32,000 bases of DNA from an archaeon GW2011_AR10. Lineage in GTDB: Archaea > Iainarchaeota > Iainarchaeia > Iainarchaeales > GW2011-AR10. The position numbers were made by a program, and so were the translations under genes. The notes under the pieces were generated by a model. It searched no databases. It saw only the letters and a program-made list of their open reading frames with translations, and was not told the origin of the DNA. The stretch is from the NCBI GenBank assembly GCA_000830275.1, contig CP010424.1, positions 570,001 to 602,000 of the forward strand, in the 5' to 3' direction. Of this stretch, positions 1,257 to 31,316 are shown piece after piece; within the stretch, counting starts at the first letter, position 1, and every line of letters begins with the position of its first letter.

Positions 1257-2122
1257 TTTTTTGGCCTCCAACGCAGTGCTGAAGCAGTTCCTGAAAGAAC
1301 TGCATGAACCGACTGAAGGTAACTGATTGGGTTGCGCGGAATCATGTAAAGGTAGTCCAAAAAAATTAGTTTTGGCGTATGGAAAAAAATGTTTTTCAGT
1401 AATGCTTTCGGATAAAACTTCCTCTGAAAAATTATTAGGCTGCGCTGGCTGTGAAAAAGGTTGTTGTAATTGCTCATTGCAGTGCTGATTCCCATATGGG
1501 TTACGAGCGCGTCAGGCAAAACATTGAGCTTATAATTGGTTTCTCTCCTTATTCGCTCGCTGAAATCGCAGTCCTCGTATTTCGCGAAATAGTCCTCTGA
1601 AACCAACCCAATCTCCCGAAAAACTTTTTTGCGGATGAACGCAGAGCCAAGGCAGACGTGCTCTGTTTCCTTAACCTCTTTCAAGTCCTCATAGGTGTCA
1701 AATGGAAAACCTGTGTGCAGTACGCCATTGGAAAAATAAATGCCGCCGCTTTTGTTAAGGAACTTGCATCCAAGCACTGCTGTTGAAGGGATTTCCTCCA
1801 AAAAATCAACGTGCTTTTTCAGATAATTTTTGTCAACTATTGTATCTTGGTTAAGGAGGCAGACATATTTTCCTCTCGTCCTCTTTATTCCCCTATTAAC
1901 TGATTTTGCAAAGCCGAGGTTTTCATTATTTTTAACCTGAACAAGTTTTGGGAATTTTTTTAGTAGTGATTCGACTTTGGAATCCTTTGGGTCATCGTTT
2001 ACAATAATTAATTCATAATCCTCCAGGGTTTGGCTTTGAAAGCAGGGAAGAAGCTTTTCCAAGTAAGAATAGCCGTTGAAGTAGGGAATTACAACTGAAA
2101 CAATGGGCTCTTTCATAAACAT
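1253..2122 (-). CDS. Glycosyltransferase family 2
   Basis: VSVVIPYFNG, ELIIVNDDPKD and CLLNQDT motifs are typical of GT-A/GT2. ATG starts are possible at 2122 or 2116. The track start at 2128 is TTG. Confidence 0.85.
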   Translation of the reverse strand: MFMKEPIVSVVIPYFNGYSYLEKLLPCFQSQTLEDYELIIVNDDPKDSKVESLLKKFPKLVQVKNNENLGFAKSVNRGIKRTRGKYVCLLNQDTIVDKNYLKKHVDFLEEIPSTAVLGCKFLNKSGGIYFSNGVLHTGFPFDTYEDLKEVKETEHVCLGSAFIRKKVFREIGLVSEDYFAKYEDCDFSERIRRETNYKLNVLPDALVTHMGISTAMSNYNNLFHSQRSLIIFQRKFYPKALLKNIFFHTPKLIFLDYLYMIPRNPISYLQSVHAVLSGTASALRWRPKK

Positions 2123-13040: not shown

Positions 13041-13055
13041 CAATATTGCGAAACA

Positions 13056-15589: not shown

Positions 15590-16312
15590 ATGCTTGATAG
15601 TATGCAGGCAAAAGCAGTGATTTTTGATTACCATGGCACGCTTGTTGATCCATGGAAGCGATACCTAGAATCTTTTTCGCAGGCAATGAAAAAATGCTGC
15701 AATTCGGCTGTTACTGATAGGGAATTCATAAAAGAACAGCGGAGAGCAGGCACTCCAACACATAAAATATTGGAGAGCATTTTAAAAAAATCGGGTTTTC
15801 CTCAGTCCTCAGAGCTCATAGAAGAAATTAACAATTATAGAAGGACCCTTGTTTCCAGTCCTGATTTTTTTAGGGAAAACCCTGACACATTAATTGAAAG
15901 CGCAAAAGAAACTCTGCAAAAGATGAAGAAACAGGGAGCAAAGCTTTTTCTGGTTTCATTAATTCCACTTTTAGACCATTCAGAAGAGAGAAAAATAAAA
16001 AAACTTATACATAATCAGTTGGTGGCTTATGAACTGGAAAAAGAATTCAGCGAGGTTTTCATTGAAATAACTCCTTATGGAAAAAAATTCGGCAACGTCA
16101 AGCTAAACGCTTTCAAGAAAATTAATGAAAAAAACGGTTTTTCTTCTAATGAATGCGTTGTTGTGGGAGACTCTGAAATCGAGCTTAATGCCGGAAAAAC
16201 ACTCGGAATGAAAACAGTAGGCGTTCTAACTGGAATGAGCAGCAGGGAGAGGCTAGAAAAATTAAAGGTTGACAGAATAATAGGGTCGGTTGCAGAACTG
16301 GAACTTTTTTAG
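15590..16312 (+). CDS. HAD superfamily hydrolase (phosphoglycolate phosphatase/HAD-IA-like) with a variant motif I
   Basis: Motif I is VIFDYHGTLVD. Motif IV is VVGDSEIELNAG. A cap-domain-length insert lies between them. ATG at 15590 or 15602. The track start at 15551 overlaps the ATP-grasp gene. Confidence 0.75.
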   Translation: MLDSMQAKAVIFDYHGTLVDPWKRYLESFSQAMKKCCNSAVTDREFIKEQRRAGTPTHKILESILKKSGFPQSSELIEEINNYRRTLVSSPDFFRENPDTLIESAKETLQKMKKQGAKLFLVSLIPLLDHSEERKIKKLIHNQLVAYELEKEFSEVFIEITPYGKKFGNVKLNAFKKINEKNGFSSNECVVVGDSEIELNAGKTLGMKTVGVLTGMSSRERLEKLKVDRIIGSVAELELF

Positions 16313-21870: not shown

Positions 21871-23382
21871 ATGCCTTTCCTAGCGCAAGAGAACAGGGCC
21901 AAGCTGCTGCTGCTTTTGCTGGCAATTGCGTTTCTTGTACGGGTTTACGCTATTGACAGGCCGATCCTTGAAGTAATGTCCACAAGGCAGGCTTTAACTG
22001 CAATGACTGCAAGGAACTTAAACGAAAGCAACTTTGACCTGCTGCACCCAGAAATAGACCTATTTGAAGGCAGGGAAAAATCCTATTATGCGCTGGAGCT
22101 ACACGTGATGCCAGCGATTACTGCGCTGCTCTACAGCCTGTTTGGAGTACAGGAATGGATTGGCAGGCTGGTATCAATACTGTTTTTTCTCGGAGCACTT
22201 ATTTTCATGTTTTTGCTCCTTGAAAAGTTCTTTAACCTGAAAGTTGCATTTATTGGCAGCCTTTTTTTCTCGCTTTCCCCGCTTACGGTAATTTATGCGA
22301 GAACATTCCAGCCGGAATCATCAATGCTTTTCTTCATGGTCGGAGCTTTGTACTTTTTCAGCGAATGGGTTGACAGGCAGGGAAATGCGGAACTCGCATT
22401 GAGCGCGGTTTTCACTTCGCTTGCACTGCTCATTAAGCCGACTGCAATTGCAGTGCTTCCTGCAATAGCGTTTCTCGCATTCAACAAGTTTGGCTGGAAA
22501 GCACTTTCAAACTGGAAGGCATGGGCCGCAATAATTCTTGTGCCATCAATTGCACTGGTTGCCTGGAGTTACTGGGCGTTTCTACTGCAACAGGAAAGCC
22601 CGGGAAGTTTTGCAAGCGTTTTGGGTGGGTGGCTGCAGCGAGACCTGGAGGAATTAACTGCTGTTACCCCGTTTTCGCCGGAACTTTATTTTGTTTTGTT
22701 TGAGAGGCTTGCCGGAAGAATCCTCACGCCAATTGGTTTTGCGCTCGCAGCAATAGGCTTGATGCTGAAACCAGAAAAAAAAGCGCAGCTGGTTTTCCAT
22801 TTTTTCCTTTTAGGAGGCTTAATTTCATTCCTTGTTTTTTACTGGCAGAACTTTGTGCACGACTACTATCAATTGCCTTTGGCTGCTGCACTAGCTGCAT
22901 TTGTTGGCATAGGGGGAAACGCAATACTTGAATCAAGGCAAATAAGGGAACGAGTGATTGACAAAAGAATAATTGCTGCCGGACTGGTTTTGCTTGTTGG
23001 GACAACGTTTTACTATTACACCCTGCAGGCATTCCACCCTTACACTAAAACCCCTGGAGAGCACTTGATGTTCGTTGAAGCAGGAGAAAAAGTTGATTCA
23101 TTAATTGAAAAAGATGCAAAGGTTTTGGTTGCATCAGAGAACGCGAAAGGCCTCCTGTATTACACCGACAGGAAGGGAAACGTATTTGCAGTTGGGCAAA
23201 CCAATGCCGAATCAATTGAAAACCTGCAGGAAAAAATCGGCATTGGCTTTACACATTTCCTTTACGCGAAAACAAAAAACTTTGCTTTGCCTGAAGAAAT
23301 CCATAGTTACCTGAAAGAAAACTTTGAAACGGTTTTGGCAGAGGAAGAAAAATACTATTTGTACGATTTAAGCCCCGATTAA
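21871..23382 (+). CDS. Polytopic membrane glycosyltransferase, GT-C fold (ArnT/PMT, GT83/GT39-like)
   Basis: 503 aa with many hydrophobic segments, followed by a soluble C-terminal ~100 aa. The layout and the position next to the Dpm1/ArnC-like GT2 are typical of ArnT/PMT_2 proteins. I could not see a clean DE motif in the first loop. Confidence 0.5.
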   Translation: MPFLAQENRAKLLLLLLAIAFLVRVYAIDRPILEVMSTRQALTAMTARNLNESNFDLLHPEIDLFEGREKSYYALELHVMPAITALLYSLFGVQEWIGRLVSILFFLGALIFMFLLLEKFFNLKVAFIGSLFFSLSPLTVIYARTFQPESSMLFFMVGALYFFSEWVDRQGNAELALSAVFTSLALLIKPTAIAVLPAIAFLAFNKFGWKALSNWKAWAAIILVPSIALVAWSYWAFLLQQESPGSFASVLGGWLQRDLEELTAVTPFSPELYFVLFERLAGRILTPIGFALAAIGLMLKPEKKAQLVFHFFLLGGLISFLVFYWQNFVHDYYQLPLAAALAAFVGIGGNAILESRQIRERVIDKRIIAAGLVLLVGTTFYYYTLQAFHPYTKTPGEHLMFVEAGEKVDSLIEKDAKVLVASENAKGLLYYTDRKGNVFAVGQTNAESIENLQEKIGIGFTHFLYAKTKNFALPEEIHSYLKENFETVLAEEEKYYLYDLSPD

Positions 23383-29255: not shown

Positions 29256-30407
29256 GTGAGTTTTTTGCACTCGGTCACGGTTGTAGGAGCAGGACCTGCA
29301 GGTCTTTCAACAGCGCTTGAATGCCAAAAGAGGGGGTGGGATGCAGTAGTAATTGAGGAGCACGCAGAGATAGGCAAGCCAGTGAACTGTACCGGCCTCA
29401 TAAGCCGAAGCGGAGTAGAGGAAACAGGCTTAGACATAGAGAAAATCAAGCTTAACAGCGTTCGAGGGGCAAGAATTTACTCTCCAAACCACGAAATGCT
29501 TGAAGTAAAGCGTAGCTCTCCAGTTGCTTACGTTATTGACCGCGCTGCCTTGGATCAGAGCATGGCGGAAGAAGCAAAAGCTGCAGGCGTGAAAATAATG
29601 CTTGAAACCAAGCTCCTTGACATAAGGAATGAAACGGTTTTCGTTGAGGAAAAAAGGCGGGGCGGACTGCTTAAATCAAAAGTCATTGTTGGAGCTGATG
29701 GCCCGAACTCCAAAACTAGGGAACTCATGGAGATAAGCAAGAAGCGAGAAGACTTTGCTCACGCGTACCAGGTTAGGGTTAATGGCAGCTTTGACGCAGG
29801 GTTTGTTGAATTATATTTTGGTTCCTACGCAAAGGACTTCTTTGCTTGGGTTGTGCCGGAAAACAAGGAATGGGCTCGCGTTGGCTTGGCAACCTCCAAC
29901 ATTAATGTAAGGGAGAGCTTTAACAGTTTCTTGAAGGAAACAAACCTTGAAGCAAATTATTCATGCGACATGTGCTCTGCTTTAATTCCAGTTGGGCTGC
30001 CGCTGAAAGAACCAGTGAAAGGCAATGTTCTGCTTGTCGGCGATGCAGCTTTTCAGACAAAGAGCACAACTGGCGGAGGCATCCTGACAGGAATCAATGC
30101 GGGCAAGGCAGCAGCAAAAGCAATCGATGATTTCTACAAGAGCAAGAAACCTTTAACCAATTACTCCAAGTACTTGAAGCCAATCAACAAAGAGCTGGAG
30201 CTGCACTGGAAGCTGAGAAAATATTTCAACGGGCTCAGCAACGAAAAACTGGACAAATTGTTTGTGAAAATGAGGAAAGCGAAGGTAGGGGAATTCCTGA
30301 GCGAGCACGGTGACATGGACAAGCCAAGCAGGTTCATAGGCAAAGTTCTCACAAGGCCAAGCATGTGGAGAATGTTCCCCGAATTCGTAAGCTTTATGGT
30401 GAAATAA
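29256..30407 (+). CDS. Geranylgeranyl reductase family flavoprotein (digeranylgeranylglycerophospholipid reductase-like)
   Basis: VVGAGPAGLSTA, NCTGLIS and LLVGDAAFQTKSTTGGGI. GTG at 29256, or more likely TTG at 29265, which lies 5 nt behind AGGTGA. Confidence 0.85.
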   Translation: MSFLHSVTVVGAGPAGLSTALECQKRGWDAVVIEEHAEIGKPVNCTGLISRSGVEETGLDIEKIKLNSVRGARIYSPNHEMLEVKRSSPVAYVIDRAALDQSMAEEAKAAGVKIMLETKLLDIRNETVFVEEKRRGGLLKSKVIVGADGPNSKTRELMEISKKREDFAHAYQVRVNGSFDAGFVELYFGSYAKDFFAWVVPENKEWARVGLATSNINVRESFNSFLKETNLEANYSCDMCSALIPVGLPLKEPVKGNVLLVGDAAFQTKSTTGGGILTGINAGKAAAKAIDDFYKSKKPLTNYSKYLKPINKELELHWKLRKYFNGLSNEKLDKLFVKMRKAKVGEFLSEHGDMDKPSRFIGKVLTRPSMWRMFPEFVSFMVK

Positions 30408-30410
30408 ATT

Positions 30411-30745
30411 ACGCCCTAGCCAAACAACAGGTTTTCCGCTCACCCACTAAAACAGCTACTAGCACCAGAAAACAGGACGTCCTCCAATGCCTAAAGGCGC
30501 AGCCTCTTTTTCGCAAGCCTCCTCGTAAAACCTTTGGTTTTACGTGGCCCGCAAAATCCCTGATTTTGCTTGGGTTTTCTAAAAGGCTTAAGGCAGTGGT
30601 TCCCCGACATTTACAAAAAGGACGTCTCTTACCCGTCAACGGAAAAAATCCACAAAAAAAAGACCATCTTGCAGAACAAAGTTCTGCGAGACCTCGCAAA
30701 CGGAGTTTGCAAGGCTCCCTGAAGGAAGTGGATTTTTTGGGTTGT
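30411..30745 (+). ncRNA. Candidate structured non-coding RNA(s), identity unresolved
   Basis: 353-nt gap between convergent stops with no credible ORF. Four perfect or near-perfect hairpins, an 11-bp long-range helix, and U6 at the 3' end on the + strand. One stem pair is U-G on + but C-A on -. See findings. Confidence 0.35.
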
Positions 30746-30760
30746 TAAATGCAAGGCAAG

Positions 30761-31051
30761 TTATTCTTCAACTTCAAGGGTTCCATTCCTTCCGGCGCTA
30801 ACCTGAATTTGGCCCTGCCACTCACTGCACCAGCCGTTCGTGATTTTCACTTTTGAGCCTTCCTTCACTTTGTCAATTTCATCGTTCCAGAGGCTGAGTT
30901 TCACTTCTTTTCCTTTATTGTCCTTTAATACAGCGCTGGCTACCTTGCCTGAGCCCCTTTCATTTGCAAAAGAGCGCGACTCGCTGACTGAAACAATTTC
31001 CCCTGAAAGTTCGTCAAAACCACTTCTCGGCTTCAAGTCCTTCACTAACAA
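30761..31051 (-). CDS. Single OB-fold ssDNA-binding protein (Sulfolobus SSB / RPA-like), short form
   Basis: VKDLKP...VSESRSF...GKVASAVLKDNKGKEVKLSLWNDEIDKVKEGSKVKITNGWCSEWQGQIQVSAGRNGTLEV parallels the crenarchaeal SSB OB domain (...LTLWG...IKEGQVVKIENAW...FKGQVQLNAG). TTG start lies 5 nt behind GAGGTG. Confidence 0.7.
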   Translation of the reverse strand: MLVKDLKPRSGFDELSGEIVSVSESRSFANERGSGKVASAVLKDNKGKEVKLSLWNDEIDKVKEGSKVKITNGWCSEWQGQIQVSAGRNGTLEVEE

Positions 31052-31245: not shown

Positions 31246-31266
31246 AAAAAAACGCGAATCTAAAAA
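31246..31266 (-). terminator. Oligo-T tracts downstream of the tRNA-like segment (minus strand)
   Basis: On the minus strand there is a T5 (31266-31262) starting 6 nt after the discriminator position, then a T7 (31252-31246). Archaeal polymerase terminates at oligo-T. Confidence 0.3.
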
Positions 31267-31271
31267 TGAAA

Positions 31272-31316
31272 TAGCCCCGCAGAGATTCGAACTCTCATGG
31301 CAGGTCGTCCCTTTTG
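31272..31316 (-). tRNA. tRNA 3'-half-like segment (variable region, T-arm, 3' acceptor strand, discriminator) with no adjacent 5' half
   Basis: Minus strand reads ...CGACCUGCCAU GAGAG UUCGAAU CUCUG CGGGGCU A. It has a canonical T-loop UUCGAAU with G53-C61, a 4-5 bp T-stem (49/65 is G-G) and a 7-nt 3' acceptor strand. No D-arm, anticodon loop or AGCCCCG 5' strand lies upstream. Confidence 0.4.

What the first reader, a model, noticed from the sequence alone, without database searches (positions are those of the whole stretch)
30408..30760. 353-nt hairpin-dense gap between convergent genes: probable unannotated structured RNA
Convergent gene pairs elsewhere in this window overlap or are 15 nt apart (16309-16312, 13041-13055, 23368-23382). 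Here 353 nt separate the reductase stop (30405-30407) from the SSB-like stop. The segment is visibly more G+C-rich than the other intergenic regions. The two long ORFs across it are rich in Arg, Lys, Cys and Pro. The + ORF has no Met inside the gap. The structure I could verify base by base is as follows. There is a 9-bp perfect stem at 30524-30532/30536-30544 with loop UUU. There is an 8-bp perfect stem at 30551-30558/30562-30569 with loop CCU. There is an 11-bp stem at 30667-30677/30681-30691 with loop AAA, whose single non-Watson-Crick pair (30670/30688) is U-G on the + strand but C-A on the - strand. There is a 5-bp stem at 30696-30700/30706-30710. An 11-bp long-range helix, AAAAAAUCCAC (30643-30653) with GUGGAUUUUUU (30728-30738), encloses the last two hairpins and ends in U6 on the + strand. 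That is an archaeal terminator signal, whereas the minus strand would have internal T8 and T6 runs. Two copies of the self-complementary GGACGUC (30475-30481, 30620-30626) could pair over 8 bp. I could not match it to SRP RNA, RNase P RNA, 5S, tRNA or C/D-box features. It may be a divergent housekeeping RNA or a novel one.
Basis: seen in the sequence. Interest (0 to 1): 0.65.

Follow-up and report, generated by a model that had tools for sequence, protein, structure and literature searches.

The report
Nested miniature transposon relics, not housekeeping RNA
The hairpin-rich 353-base gap is most likely not a hidden housekeeping RNA gene but two small gene-less mobile elements, one inserted inside the other, left by a common transposon family (IS200/IS605, TnpB-type) in a tiny groundwater archaeon; this is ordinary.

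Summary

The interpretation, one unannotated housekeeping or novel RNA on the + strand, is not what the evidence favours. The gap is a composite of interspersed repeats read on the - strand.

- **Element A (30475-30744).** It has no terminal inverted repeats.
  - Its 5' module matches a covariance model built from five copies in other Diapherotrites/Iainarchaeota contigs (39.4 bits, E 8e-7).
  - Its 3' module is the terminal stem-loop that sits directly after tnpB stop codons in IS605-type elements: GGAAUCC-stem-UUUA-stem-GGAGGACGUCA.
  - This makes A a transposase-less LE-RE fusion (a PATE) carrying an omega-RNA-like scaffold.
- **Element B (30499-30589).** This 91-nt repeat holds the two perfect hairpins. 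It is inserted in the loop of A's 3' hairpin, between GCCTT repeats. A second copy, 89% identical, lies upstream of tRNA-Gln.
- **Sister copy of A.** An intact 122-nt copy lies about 0.5 kb away in 8 of 9 informative near-identical strain contigs. It is precisely absent from the window.
- **Relatives.** Their orthologous loci lack the element, and Rfam gives no real hit.

No tnpA or tnpB was found nearby. Transcription was not tested.

The parts
30475..30744 (-). Element A: transposase-less IS200/IS605-type element (PATE-like LE-RE fusion, omega-RNA-like scaffold). It includes the nested element B.
   Evidence: The 5' module is hit by model R1 and the 3' half by model R2. It aligns with the 122-nt sister copy at L001:9661-9782. 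With B removed it is 177 nt and folds into the family architecture.
30745..30751 (-). Left flank CATTTAA. This is the target-like motif (consensus A-T-T-Y-A-Y) that precedes CAACCC in all copies.
   Evidence: Flanks of the six copies are TCATT, TCATT, TTCAC, TTCAC, TTTAC and TTTAA.
30620..30744 (-). 5' (LE-side) module X. It reads CAAC-CC-AAAAAAUCCAC ... GUGGAUUUUUU-CC-GUUG-ACGGG-N5-GACGUCC.
   Evidence: Model R1 was built from 5 other copies without this one. It gives 39.4 bits, E 7.6e-7, full length, at 30620-30750 on the - strand. Part of this match is circular, because the other copies were retrieved with a pattern taken from this sequence. The outer stem differs in sequence but stays paired across copies.
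30654..30727 (-). Expanded interior of the X stem. It replaces the CGGC-UUUA-GUCG hairpin seen in other copies. Its origin is unknown.
   Evidence: No other copy of this interior was found.
30590..30598 (-). 5' arm of A's terminal (RE-type) hairpin, CACUGCCUU. It is cut off from its 3' arm by element B.
   Evidence: Compared with the uninterrupted hairpin CCUGCC-UUUA-GGCAGG in L001:9757-9775.
30499..30589 (-). Element B: a 91-nt miniature repeat (MITE/SMR-like) carrying the two perfect hairpins (30524-30544 and 30551-30569). It sits in the loop of A's terminal hairpin between direct GCCTT repeats (30590-30594 and 30494-30498).
   Evidence: A second copy at L001:8305-8390 is 89% identical over 84 nt and has its own flanking GCAAA repeat. 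The ends form an imperfect inverted repeat, AGCCTyTTTT. In contig L010 all 7 SNPs of the gap fall inside B, and 30526/30542 change together.
30475..30493 (-). 3' arm of the terminal hairpin plus the tail, UAGGCAUUGGAGGACGUCC. This corresponds to the end of the tnpB-linked RE / omega-RNA scaffold (GGGGAGGACGUCAA).
   Evidence: Model R2 gives a partial hit at 30476-30501 (13.3 bits, E 0.9; model positions 9-38 only, because B splits the hairpin).
30468..30474 (-). UGUUUUC directly after the element end. This is a possible archaeal oligo-U termination signal for a - strand transcript.
   Evidence: Read from the sequence. U-runs follow the element end in the other copies too. Function is inferred.
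30408..30467 (.). Unassigned spacer (the reductase 3' flank). It belongs to no repeat family found here.
   Evidence: No match to any other locus.
31265..31274 (-). Empty site (TTTCATT|TTTAG) where 8 of 9 informative strain contigs carry the intact 122-nt sister copy of A.

Best explanation
**What it is.** The gap is a conglomerate of miniature non-autonomous mobile elements in the Diapherotrites archaeon GW2011_AR10.

**Element A (- strand, 30744 to 30475).** A is a transposase-less derivative of an IS200/IS605-family insertion sequence, that is, a palindrome-associated transposable element (PATE).
- Its left-end part is a long stem, which in other copies holds a hairpin with a UUUA loop.
- This part is fused to the last ~60 nt of a tnpB-type right end. 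That stretch consists of a GACGUCC box, then the terminal stem-loop, then GGAGGACGUC.
- In complete elements the same stretch is the 3' end of the omega (guide) RNA scaffold of TnpB.

**How it most likely works (inferred).** Such elements are moved as single strands by a Y1 (HUH) TnpA supplied in trans. TnpA recognises the UUUA-loop hairpins, inserts 3' of a TTYAY-like target and excises precisely.

**Element B.** A second repeat of 91 nt, with imperfect inverted ends and 5-bp flanking repeats, later inserted into the loop of A's terminal hairpin. This probably immobilised the copy. That would explain why it is fixed in all sampled strains, while the intact 122-nt sister copy is still polymorphic.

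**Shown versus inferred.**
- Shown: the repeat composition, the nesting, the homology to tnpB-linked ends, the sister-copy polymorphism and the absence from relatives.
- Inferred: mobilisation by TnpA, any RNA role, and inactivation by B.
For: 1. **Sister copy.** The 122-nt indel at L001:9661-9782 shares A's modules in the same order. It is present in 8 contigs and precisely absent from the window and L008, with TCATT at both junctions.
2. **Other copies.** More copies occur at unrelated sites in other Diapherotrites/Iainarchaeota contigs: L146, L138/L147, L157, and L153/L076, the last from Candidatus Iainarchaeum UBA10205.
3. **5' module.** Model R1, built without the gap copy, finds it at full length (39.4 bits, E 7.6e-7).
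4. **3' motif next to tnpB.**
   - A pattern taken from A's 3' module retrieved viral contigs in which it lies within 15 nt of the end of a tnpB ORF (L175/L176, L177).
   - Pfam confirms these ORFs as TnpB (PF07282 and PF01385, E 1e-15 to 1e-24).
   - L175 is a complete tnpA-tnpB element whose LE and RE hairpins are near-identical and both have UUUA loops.
5. **Unbiased check.** Two tnpB loci chosen by protein similarity alone (L179, L180) carry the same module right after the stop codon.
6. **3' module.** Model R2, built from the tnpB-linked and viral modules, hits the sister copy (26.4 bits, E 2.4e-4), L138 (26.3 bits), L146 (19.7 bits) and the 3' half in the gap.
7. **Nesting of B.** B has a second copy 89% identical, and it sits exactly in the loop of a hairpin that is uninterrupted in the sister copy.
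8. **Relatives.** Relatives with 59-63% identical reductase, or 61-66% identical OB-fold protein, have no such element at the corresponding positions.
9. **Published precedent.**
   - PATEs lack inverted terminal repeats, have near-terminal palindromes like those of IS605-type transposons, and are preferentially hit by ~110-bp small repeats inside those palindromes (PMC3119063).
   - PATEs often encode omega RNAs that must be used in trans (PMC10055086).
Against: - **No transposase found.** No tnpA or tnpB gene or remnant was found in the window or in about 150 kb of related archaeal loci. The rest of the 1.24-Mb genome could not be scanned, so the trans-acting partner is unproven.
- **Circular retrieval.** The copies and the tnpB-linked ends were retrieved with patterns taken from the element itself. 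Part of the model scores is therefore circular. The independent support comes from positions outside the patterns, from L138, and from L179/L180.
- **The gap copy is incomplete.** It lacks the recognisable LE hairpin. Its terminal hairpin is split and it ends in GUCC rather than GUCA, so its own family membership rests on the 5' module and half of the 3' module.
- **Insertion or deletion.** The 122-nt polymorphism could be a deletion between the 5-nt repeats rather than transposition.
- **Thin data for B.** Only two copies are known, so its ends and target duplications are provisional.
- **No expression data.**
Confidence: 0.8

Rival explanations
1. The transposon-derived sequence has been taken over by the host. 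Three versions are possible. The - strand transcript could act as an orphan omega-RNA used in trans by a TnpB or a nuclease-dead TnpB-like repressor encoded elsewhere. It could act as a structured 3' UTR of the OB-fold gene. Or it could act as a bidirectional terminator between the two convergent genes.
For: - The copy is fixed and identical in 9 of 10 strain contigs, while the flanking genes carry SNPs.
- The GACGUCC/GGACGUC pairing is retained.
- U-runs follow the element end on the - strand, and T-runs occur on the + strand.
- PATEs are reported to encode omega RNAs used in trans (PMC10055086). A PATE-derived RNA affected growth in Halobacterium (PMC4615843).
Against: - The terminal hairpin, the best conserved part of the scaffold, is split by a 91-nt insertion, and the element end is mutated.
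- No TnpB-like gene was found in the sequence available.
- Relatives manage without any such element at these genes.
- With only about 0.3-0.7% divergence among strains, identity over 353 nt is weak evidence of selection.
Confidence: 0.12
2. The gap encodes one discrete structured RNA on the + strand, either a divergent housekeeping RNA or a novel cellular ncRNA, ending at the U6 run.
For: - The sequence folds significantly better than shuffles (z -3.79).
- One U-G pair (30670/30688) favours the + strand.
- The gap is unusually long for convergent genes in this window.
Against: - Rfam finds nothing at gathering thresholds or at E <= 10 except terminator-like noise.
- The - strand folds just as well.
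- The helices belong to two separate repeat families with other copies elsewhere.
- The element is absent from the orthologous sites in relatives.
- The U6 run is one arm of the outer stem of the element.
Confidence: 0.03
3. The CAAC...GUUG stem with its unpaired CC/CC spacer is a site-specific recombination site of the integron attC type. On this view the OB-fold gene between the two copies is a gene cassette.
For: - The stem layout (R box CAAC/GUUG, unpaired spacer, a second stem, a variable tip) resembles attC, from my own knowledge of integron sites.
- Two copies in direct orientation flank the small OB-fold ORF in most strains.
- Toxin-antitoxin genes and a tRNA fragment lie nearby.
Against: - The polymorphic unit runs from CAACCC to GACGTCATT. 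It is the whole element, not a stretch from one recombination point to the next with an ORF inside.
- No integrase lies nearby.
- The core sites match the attC consensus only in part.
- The 3' module is clearly the end of tnpB-type elements.
Confidence: 0.02

Closest known systems
PATEs (palindrome-associated transposable elements) of IS200/IS605-type transposons, described in Haloquadratum walsbyi and other haloarchaea (PMC3119063)
   Same: - No terminal inverted repeats.
- Hairpins near both ends that resemble each other and those of full IS605-type elements.
- A short conserved oligonucleotide at the 5' flank.
[quoted passage not shown]
- Strain-specific presence or absence.
- Hit by a ~100-nt small repeat inside a near-terminal palindrome, as the SMR-A elements do in Haloquadratum.
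   Different: - The host is a DPANN archaeon (Diapherotrites) with a 1.24-Mb genome.
- No full-length parent element or TnpA has been found in it yet.
- The left part is a long, variable-tip stem rather than a simple palindrome.
- The nested repeat here shows apparent 5-bp flanking duplications, whereas SMR-A elements are reported not to cause duplications.
TnpB omega RNA (reRNA; 'sotRNA' in PMC4615843), the guide RNA encoded at the 3' end of tnpB and the transposon right end
   Same: - The terminal module GGAAUCC-stem-UUUA-stem-GGGGAGGACGUCAA is shared with tnpB-linked ends (L175, L177, L179, L180).
- An upstream GACGUC box that can pair with the 3' GGACGUC is kept. In tnpB genes this box is the D-V codons of the RDVNA motif.
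   Different: - No tnpB ORF overlaps it, so the scaffold is shortened.
- In the gap copy the terminal hairpin is interrupted by 91 nt.
- Transcription, guide use and a partner protein are all untested.
Rfam HgcC family (RF00062), high-GC ncRNAs of Methanocaldococcus and Pyrococcus, function unresolved
   Same: - The 3' end of the HgcC consensus (GGaaC-CccCGccc-UUuA-gggCGggG-AGGAGGUCAG) is the same terminal module.
- HgcC has been linked to IS1341-type right ends (PMC4615843).
- HgcC was found inside a tRNA-flanked insertion in Archaeoglobus fulgidus (PMC5732400).
   Different: - Only the sister copy gives a hit, at 15.3 bits against a gathering score of 50 (E 0.2).
- The gap, L146, L138 and L157 give none.
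- The 5' two-thirds do not match.
MITEs and small mobile repeats (for element B)
   Same: - About 90 nt.
- Imperfect inverted ends.
- Apparent 5-bp duplications at both known insertion sites.
- More than one copy in the genome.
- Inserted into another mobile element.
   Different: - Only two copies have been seen.
- No matching transposase is known.
- The ends are uncertain by a few bases.

Membership tests
IS200/IS605-type PATE | No terminal inverted repeats | tested here: met
   The ends CAACCCAAAA... and ...GGAGGACGTCC are not inverted copies of each other. The same holds for the sister copy.
IS200/IS605-type PATE | Right-end subterminal hairpin and tail like those of full IS605-type elements | tested here: met
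   Model R2 scores 26.4 bits on the sister copy. In the gap it scores 13.3 bits on the 3' half only, because B splits the hairpin.
IS200/IS605-type PATE | Left-end hairpin similar to the right-end hairpin | tested here: inconclusive
   Other copies have CGGC-UUUA-GUCG, with the same loop as the LE and RE hairpins of the complete element L175. In the gap copy this hairpin is replaced by other hairpins (30654-30727).
IS200/IS605-type PATE | Insertion 3' of a short conserved target, with precise presence/absence between strains | tested here: inconclusive
   This is met for the 122-nt sister copy: the empty site is TTTCATT|TTTAG and the filled site is TTTCATT|CAACCC...GACGTCATT|TTGAG. The gap copy itself is present in all 10 contigs. 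A deletion between the TCATT repeats cannot be excluded.
IS200/IS605-type PATE | A Y1 transposase (TnpA) in the same genome to move it | not testable with these tools
   Only about 42 kb of the 1.24-Mb genome could be read, and no tnpA was in it.
TnpB omega RNA | Encoded at, and overlapping, the 3' end of a tnpB gene | tested here: not met
   There is no tnpB ORF or remnant in or beside the gap (tblastn noise only; Pfam negative). It can at most be an orphan derivative.
TnpB omega RNA | Conserved terminal stem-loop followed by GGAGGAxGUCAA at the scaffold-guide junction | tested here: inconclusive
   The module is intact in the sister copy. In the gap it is split by B and ends in GUCC.
TnpB omega RNA | Transcribed, bound by TnpB and used as a guide | not testable with these tools
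   No expression or binding data are available here.
Rfam HgcC (RF00062) | Score at or above the family gathering threshold (50 bits) | tested here: not met
   There is no hit for the gap at E <= 10. The sister copy scores 15.3 bits. L138, L157 and L146 give no hit.
Archaeal SRP RNA, RNase P RNA or any other Rfam family | Covariance-model match | tested here: not met
   The whole window gives 0 hits at gathering thresholds. Region 30300-30900 at E <= 10 gives only three terminator-like hits to bacterial sRNA models.
MITE-like repeat (element B) | Inverted ends, target duplication, several copies, no ORF | tested here: inconclusive
   There are two copies, 89% identical. The flanking repeats are GCCTT and GCAAA. 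The inverted repeat is imperfect, 8-10 nt. Two copies are too few to fix the ends.

The most novel reading that the evidence does not exclude
The intact copies of this family, and perhaps the gap copy, could be orphan omega-type guide RNAs kept by a reduced DPANN genome and used in trans. The user would be a TnpB, or a nuclease-dead TnpB-like regulator, encoded elsewhere in the genome or on a virus or host partner. That would make them a working RNA-guided system stripped down to its RNA. It would also give the long-unexplained HgcC RNAs of hyperthermophilic archaea the same reading.
Probability: 0.1. Interest if true: 0.6.

Novelty: new member of a known kind. Interest (0 to 1): 0.25.

Why it matters
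**Annotation.** This result stops a hairpin-dense intergenic region from being filed as a new housekeeping RNA. It also shows that even a 1.24-Mb DPANN genome carries recently mobile miniature IS200/IS605 derivatives, clustered in a variable region next to tRNA-Gln and toxin-antitoxin genes.

**A reusable signature.** The terminal module GGAAUCC-stem-UUUA-stem-GGAGGAxGUCAA is a compact signature of one tnpB clade's right end and omega RNA. It can be used to flag such relics and the ends of tnpB elements. It also ties Rfam's HgcC family to that same module.

**Limits.** No new biology is established beyond that.

Tried and rejected
**Searches that found nothing useful**
- Rfam found nothing on the window, the gap or four sister loci, apart from one weak HgcC hit that did not recur in other copies.
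- ARAGORN found no tRNA in the window.
- blastn of the elements against plasmids and phages gave no match.
- The first viral contigs patterns gave no match.
- tblastn with two TnpB proteins against the window and the archaeal loci gave only noise.
- A full-text search for GW2011_AR10 found nothing relevant.

- My first genome contigs pattern (CCGTTGACGGGN{3,8}GACGTC) was too loose.
- Attempts to extend the window leftwards failed. In one case the protein was not on record, and in the other the contig ended.
- The last protein search, with the L175 TnpB, gave no taxon names, so it could not show whether Diapherotrites encode this clade. It did supply the two unbiased tnpB loci.

**Ideas considered and dropped**
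- RNase P RNA and SRP RNA, compared by eye. GAGGACGUCC resembles the RNase P CR-I motif but sits in the wrong position, and the element is multi-copy.
- A split tRNA. The tRNA-like piece at 31272-31296 is a duplicate of the tRNA-Gln 3' end instead.
- An integron attC site. The polymorphic unit has the wrong boundaries and there is no integrase.
- Protein coding. There are no Pfam hits.

Full report
**1. The observation**

The gap 30408-30760 lies between the stop codon of a geranylgeranyl-reductase-family gene (+ strand, 29256-30407) and that of a 96-aa OB-fold gene (- strand, 30761-31051). The gap is 46.5% G+C against 41.5% for the window. It folds better than dinucleotide shuffles on the + strand (z -3.79) and equally well on the - strand (z -3.55). 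The ORFs that cross it have no Pfam match. The folding statistics do not choose a strand.

**2. Not a known RNA family**

Rfam finds nothing in the whole window at gathering thresholds. At E <= 10 the gap gives only terminator-like matches to bacterial sRNA models. ARAGORN finds no tRNA.

**3. Source organism and strain comparison**

The OB-fold protein occurs unchanged on 23 contigs from Rifle groundwater metagenomes. NCBI names it under 'archaeon GW2011_AR10', whose longest contig is 1.24 Mb. The reductase's named relatives are Candidatus Diapherotrites archaea.

Ten near-identical contigs (99.3-99.9%) all carry the gap. Nine are identical across it. The tenth (L010) has 7 SNPs, all between 30524 and 30560, and 30526/30542 change together.

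The informative difference lies about 0.5 kb away. At window 31269/31270, eight contigs have an extra 122 nt (L001:9661-9782) that the window and L008 lack. TCATT is present at both junctions.

**4. The gap is built from repeats**

Element A. The 122-nt indel shares sequence modules, in the same order, with the - strand of the gap. The modules are:
- CAACCC(A)4-6 and one stem arm;
- the other stem arm, then UUUUCCGUUGACGGGU-N4-GACGUCC;
- UAAAyGU..GG..ACC;
- a hairpin CUGCC-UUUA-GGCAG;
- GAGGACGUC.

Element B. In the gap the last hairpin reads CACUGCCUU[97 nt]UAGGCAUUGG. The inserted stretch consists of a 91-nt unit plus a second GCCTT. It has another copy, 89% identical over 84 nt, at L001:8305-8390, just upstream of tRNA-Gln. 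That copy is flanked by its own 5-nt repeat, GCAAA.

With B removed, A is 177 nt and folds into an outer CAAC/GUUG-closed stem plus a GACGUCC/GGACGUC-closed terminal hairpin.

- The 9-bp and 8-bp hairpins belong to B.
- The 11-bp long-range helix is A's outer stem.
- The 11-bp and 5-bp hairpins fill the expanded tip of that stem.
- The two GGACGUC boxes are A's closing helix.

**5. Other copies**

A pattern from A's 5' module found copies at unrelated intergenic sites in AT-rich archaeal contigs:
- L146, 87% identical to the 122-nt copy;
- L138/L147;
- L157;
- L153/L076, the last from Candidatus Iainarchaeum UBA10205.

All copies are preceded by a similar short motif (TCATT, TCATT, TTCAC, TTCAC, TTTAC, TTTAA) and end in GACGUCAY.

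A covariance model built from five of these copies, without the gap, finds the gap copy at full length on the - strand (30620-30750; 39.4 bits, E 7.6e-7 in 156 kb). It finds no other copy in the window.

Part of that score is circular, because the copies were found with a pattern taken from the gap. The CAACCC start, the CC/CC internal loop and the paired outer stem lie outside the pattern. Across copies the outer stem differs in sequence but stays paired. Several pairs are G-U on this strand, which would be C-A on the other strand. With five sequences from two lineages, this covariation is modest.

**6. The link to IS200/IS605 and TnpB**

A weak Rfam hit of the 122-nt copy to HgcC (15.3 bits, E 0.2) was the first lead. 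HgcC has been connected to IS1341-type right ends and to PATEs (PMC4615843). The hit did not recur in other copies.

The decisive result came from a pattern taken from A's 3' module (GCCTTTAGGCN{2,8}GGACGTCA) run on viral contigs.
- In L175/L176 and L177 the motif lies within 15 nt of the end of ORFs that are TnpB by Pfam (PF07282 and PF01385).
- L175 is a complete element with a Y1 tnpA. Its left-end hairpin (AAUCCCCUAGC-UUUA-GCCACGGGGAU) nearly repeats its right-end hairpin (GGAAUCCCCUGCC-UUUA-GGCACGAGGG).
- Other hits (L169/171/172, L173/L178, L174) are gene-less copies of the same kind.

To remove the selection bias I took two tnpB loci chosen by protein similarity alone (L179, L180). Both carry UAGGAAUCCCCUU...GGGGA(A/G)G(A/U)U(G/U)UCAA directly after the stop codon.

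A model built from these seven modules gives the following hits:
- the sister copy: 26.4 bits, E 2.4e-4;
- L138: 26.3 bits, although L138 lacks the second half of the search pattern;
- L146: 19.7 bits;
- the gap: only the 3' half (30476-30501; 13.3 bits, E 0.9), as expected if B splits the hairpin.

The upstream GACGUC box of tnpB-linked ends falls on the D-V codons of the RDVNA motif. In L179 both boxes differ (GAUAUC and GAUGUC) and can still pair. This is a single case, noted but not tested.

**7. Not conserved at the locus**

In relatives with 59-63% identical reductase, the gene downstream of the reductase differs each time (toxin-antitoxin-like genes, CutA1). No copy of A or B is present.

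The stretch between the reductase and the undecaprenyl-diphosphate-synthase-family gene (Prenyltransf, PF01255) is a variable region. In AR10 this region holds the OB-fold gene, toxin-antitoxin genes, tRNA-Gln and the repeats.

In two relatives the OB-fold gene sits after ftsY in a ribosomal-protein neighbourhood with no such element behind it.

**8. Interpretation**

The best reading is a transposase-less IS200/IS605-type element (a PATE) with an omega-RNA-like right end, later hit by a second miniature repeat.

This matches the description of Haloquadratum PATEs (PMC3119063). They have no inverted ends and near-terminal palindromes like those of IS605-type transposons. They have a 4-5-bp targeting sequence and strain-specific insertions. 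About 110-bp small repeats preferentially insert into their palindromes.

PATEs are also reported to encode omega RNAs that must act in trans (PMC10055086).

Three points are inferred, not shown:
- mobilisation by a TnpA in trans;
- inactivation of the gap copy by B;
- any RNA role.

No tnpA or tnpB was found in the roughly 42 kb of this genome that I could read, nor in about 150 kb of related loci.

**9. Verdict**

The finding is real as a structure and ordinary as biology. It is a new member of a known kind, in a lineage (DPANN, Diapherotrites) where I found no earlier description of such elements. The main caveats are the partly circular retrieval of family members, the small number of copies, the unscanned rest of the genome and the lack of transcript data.

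Noticed in passing
window 31272-31296 (- strand); L001:8438-8512 and L001:9620-9655: A tRNA-like 3' fragment (GAGAGTTCGAATCTCTGCGGGGCTA) duplicates the 3' end of tRNA-Gln(CTG), which lies about 1.1 kb further on, just outside the window. Small toxin-antitoxin-like genes (YoeB/ParE-like) lie between the two. This looks like the att duplication of an integrated element or its remnant.
   Followed up: partly
window 30761-31051 (- strand) compared with L166 and L168: In two relatives the small OB-fold (RPA/SSB-like) gene follows ftsY in a ribosomal-protein, eIF6 and prefoldin cluster. In AR10 it sits in a variable region, and in most strains it lies between two copies of element A in direct orientation. 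It may have been relocated or duplicated. I did not check whether AR10 has a second copy next to ftsY.
   Followed up: partly
L157:4061-4203 and L076:~1418-1550 (- strand): A 131-nt element (TTTAC|AACGCC...GGGTCGTTTTAC|) occurs as 97-99% identical copies at two unrelated loci of one Iainarchaeum-like population. At one locus it is downstream of module X and at the other upstream. It has two UUUA/UUUU-loop hairpins and ends in the same pentanucleotide that precedes it, so it looks like a second PATE family.
   Followed up: partly
window 30524-30560 in contig L010: All 7 SNPs that distinguish L010 in the gap cluster within 37 nt of element B, while the flanks are nearly identical. This suggests gene conversion from another B copy. 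In the second B copy the loop of the 9-bp hairpin is inverted (AAA versus TTT).
   Followed up: partly
L175:9620-11371 (IMG/VR contig IMGVR_UViG_3300029952_000059): A complete IS605-type element (tnpA, tnpB and matching LE and RE hairpins) sits directly downstream of a tRNA gene in a 29% G+C viral contig. Copies of element A in L138 and L001 also lie next to a tRNA gene or a tRNA fragment. This proximity to tRNA genes may not be chance.
   Followed up: no
L177, L175, L179, L180: tnpB 3' ends: The GACGUC box upstream of the terminal hairpin is the D-V codon pair of the catalytic RDVNA motif of TnpB, and it can pair with GGACGUC at the scaffold end. In L179 both boxes differ (GAUAUC and GAUGUC) and pairing is kept. 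In L180 it is not obviously kept.
   Followed up: no
L157:6818-6894 (- strand): Model R2 gives a weak hit here (13.8 bits, E 0.66) with a 45-nt insertion in the hairpin. It may be another interrupted right-end module.
   Followed up: no
L135, L139, L140 (metagenome contigs, 38-43% G+C): Three related contigs share TTCCGTTGACGGGAATGCGACGTCC, preceded by an inverted TTTCCCGTCAA. Model R1 scores them only 19 bits. It is unclear whether they are distant relatives of the family or coding sequence.
   Followed up: no
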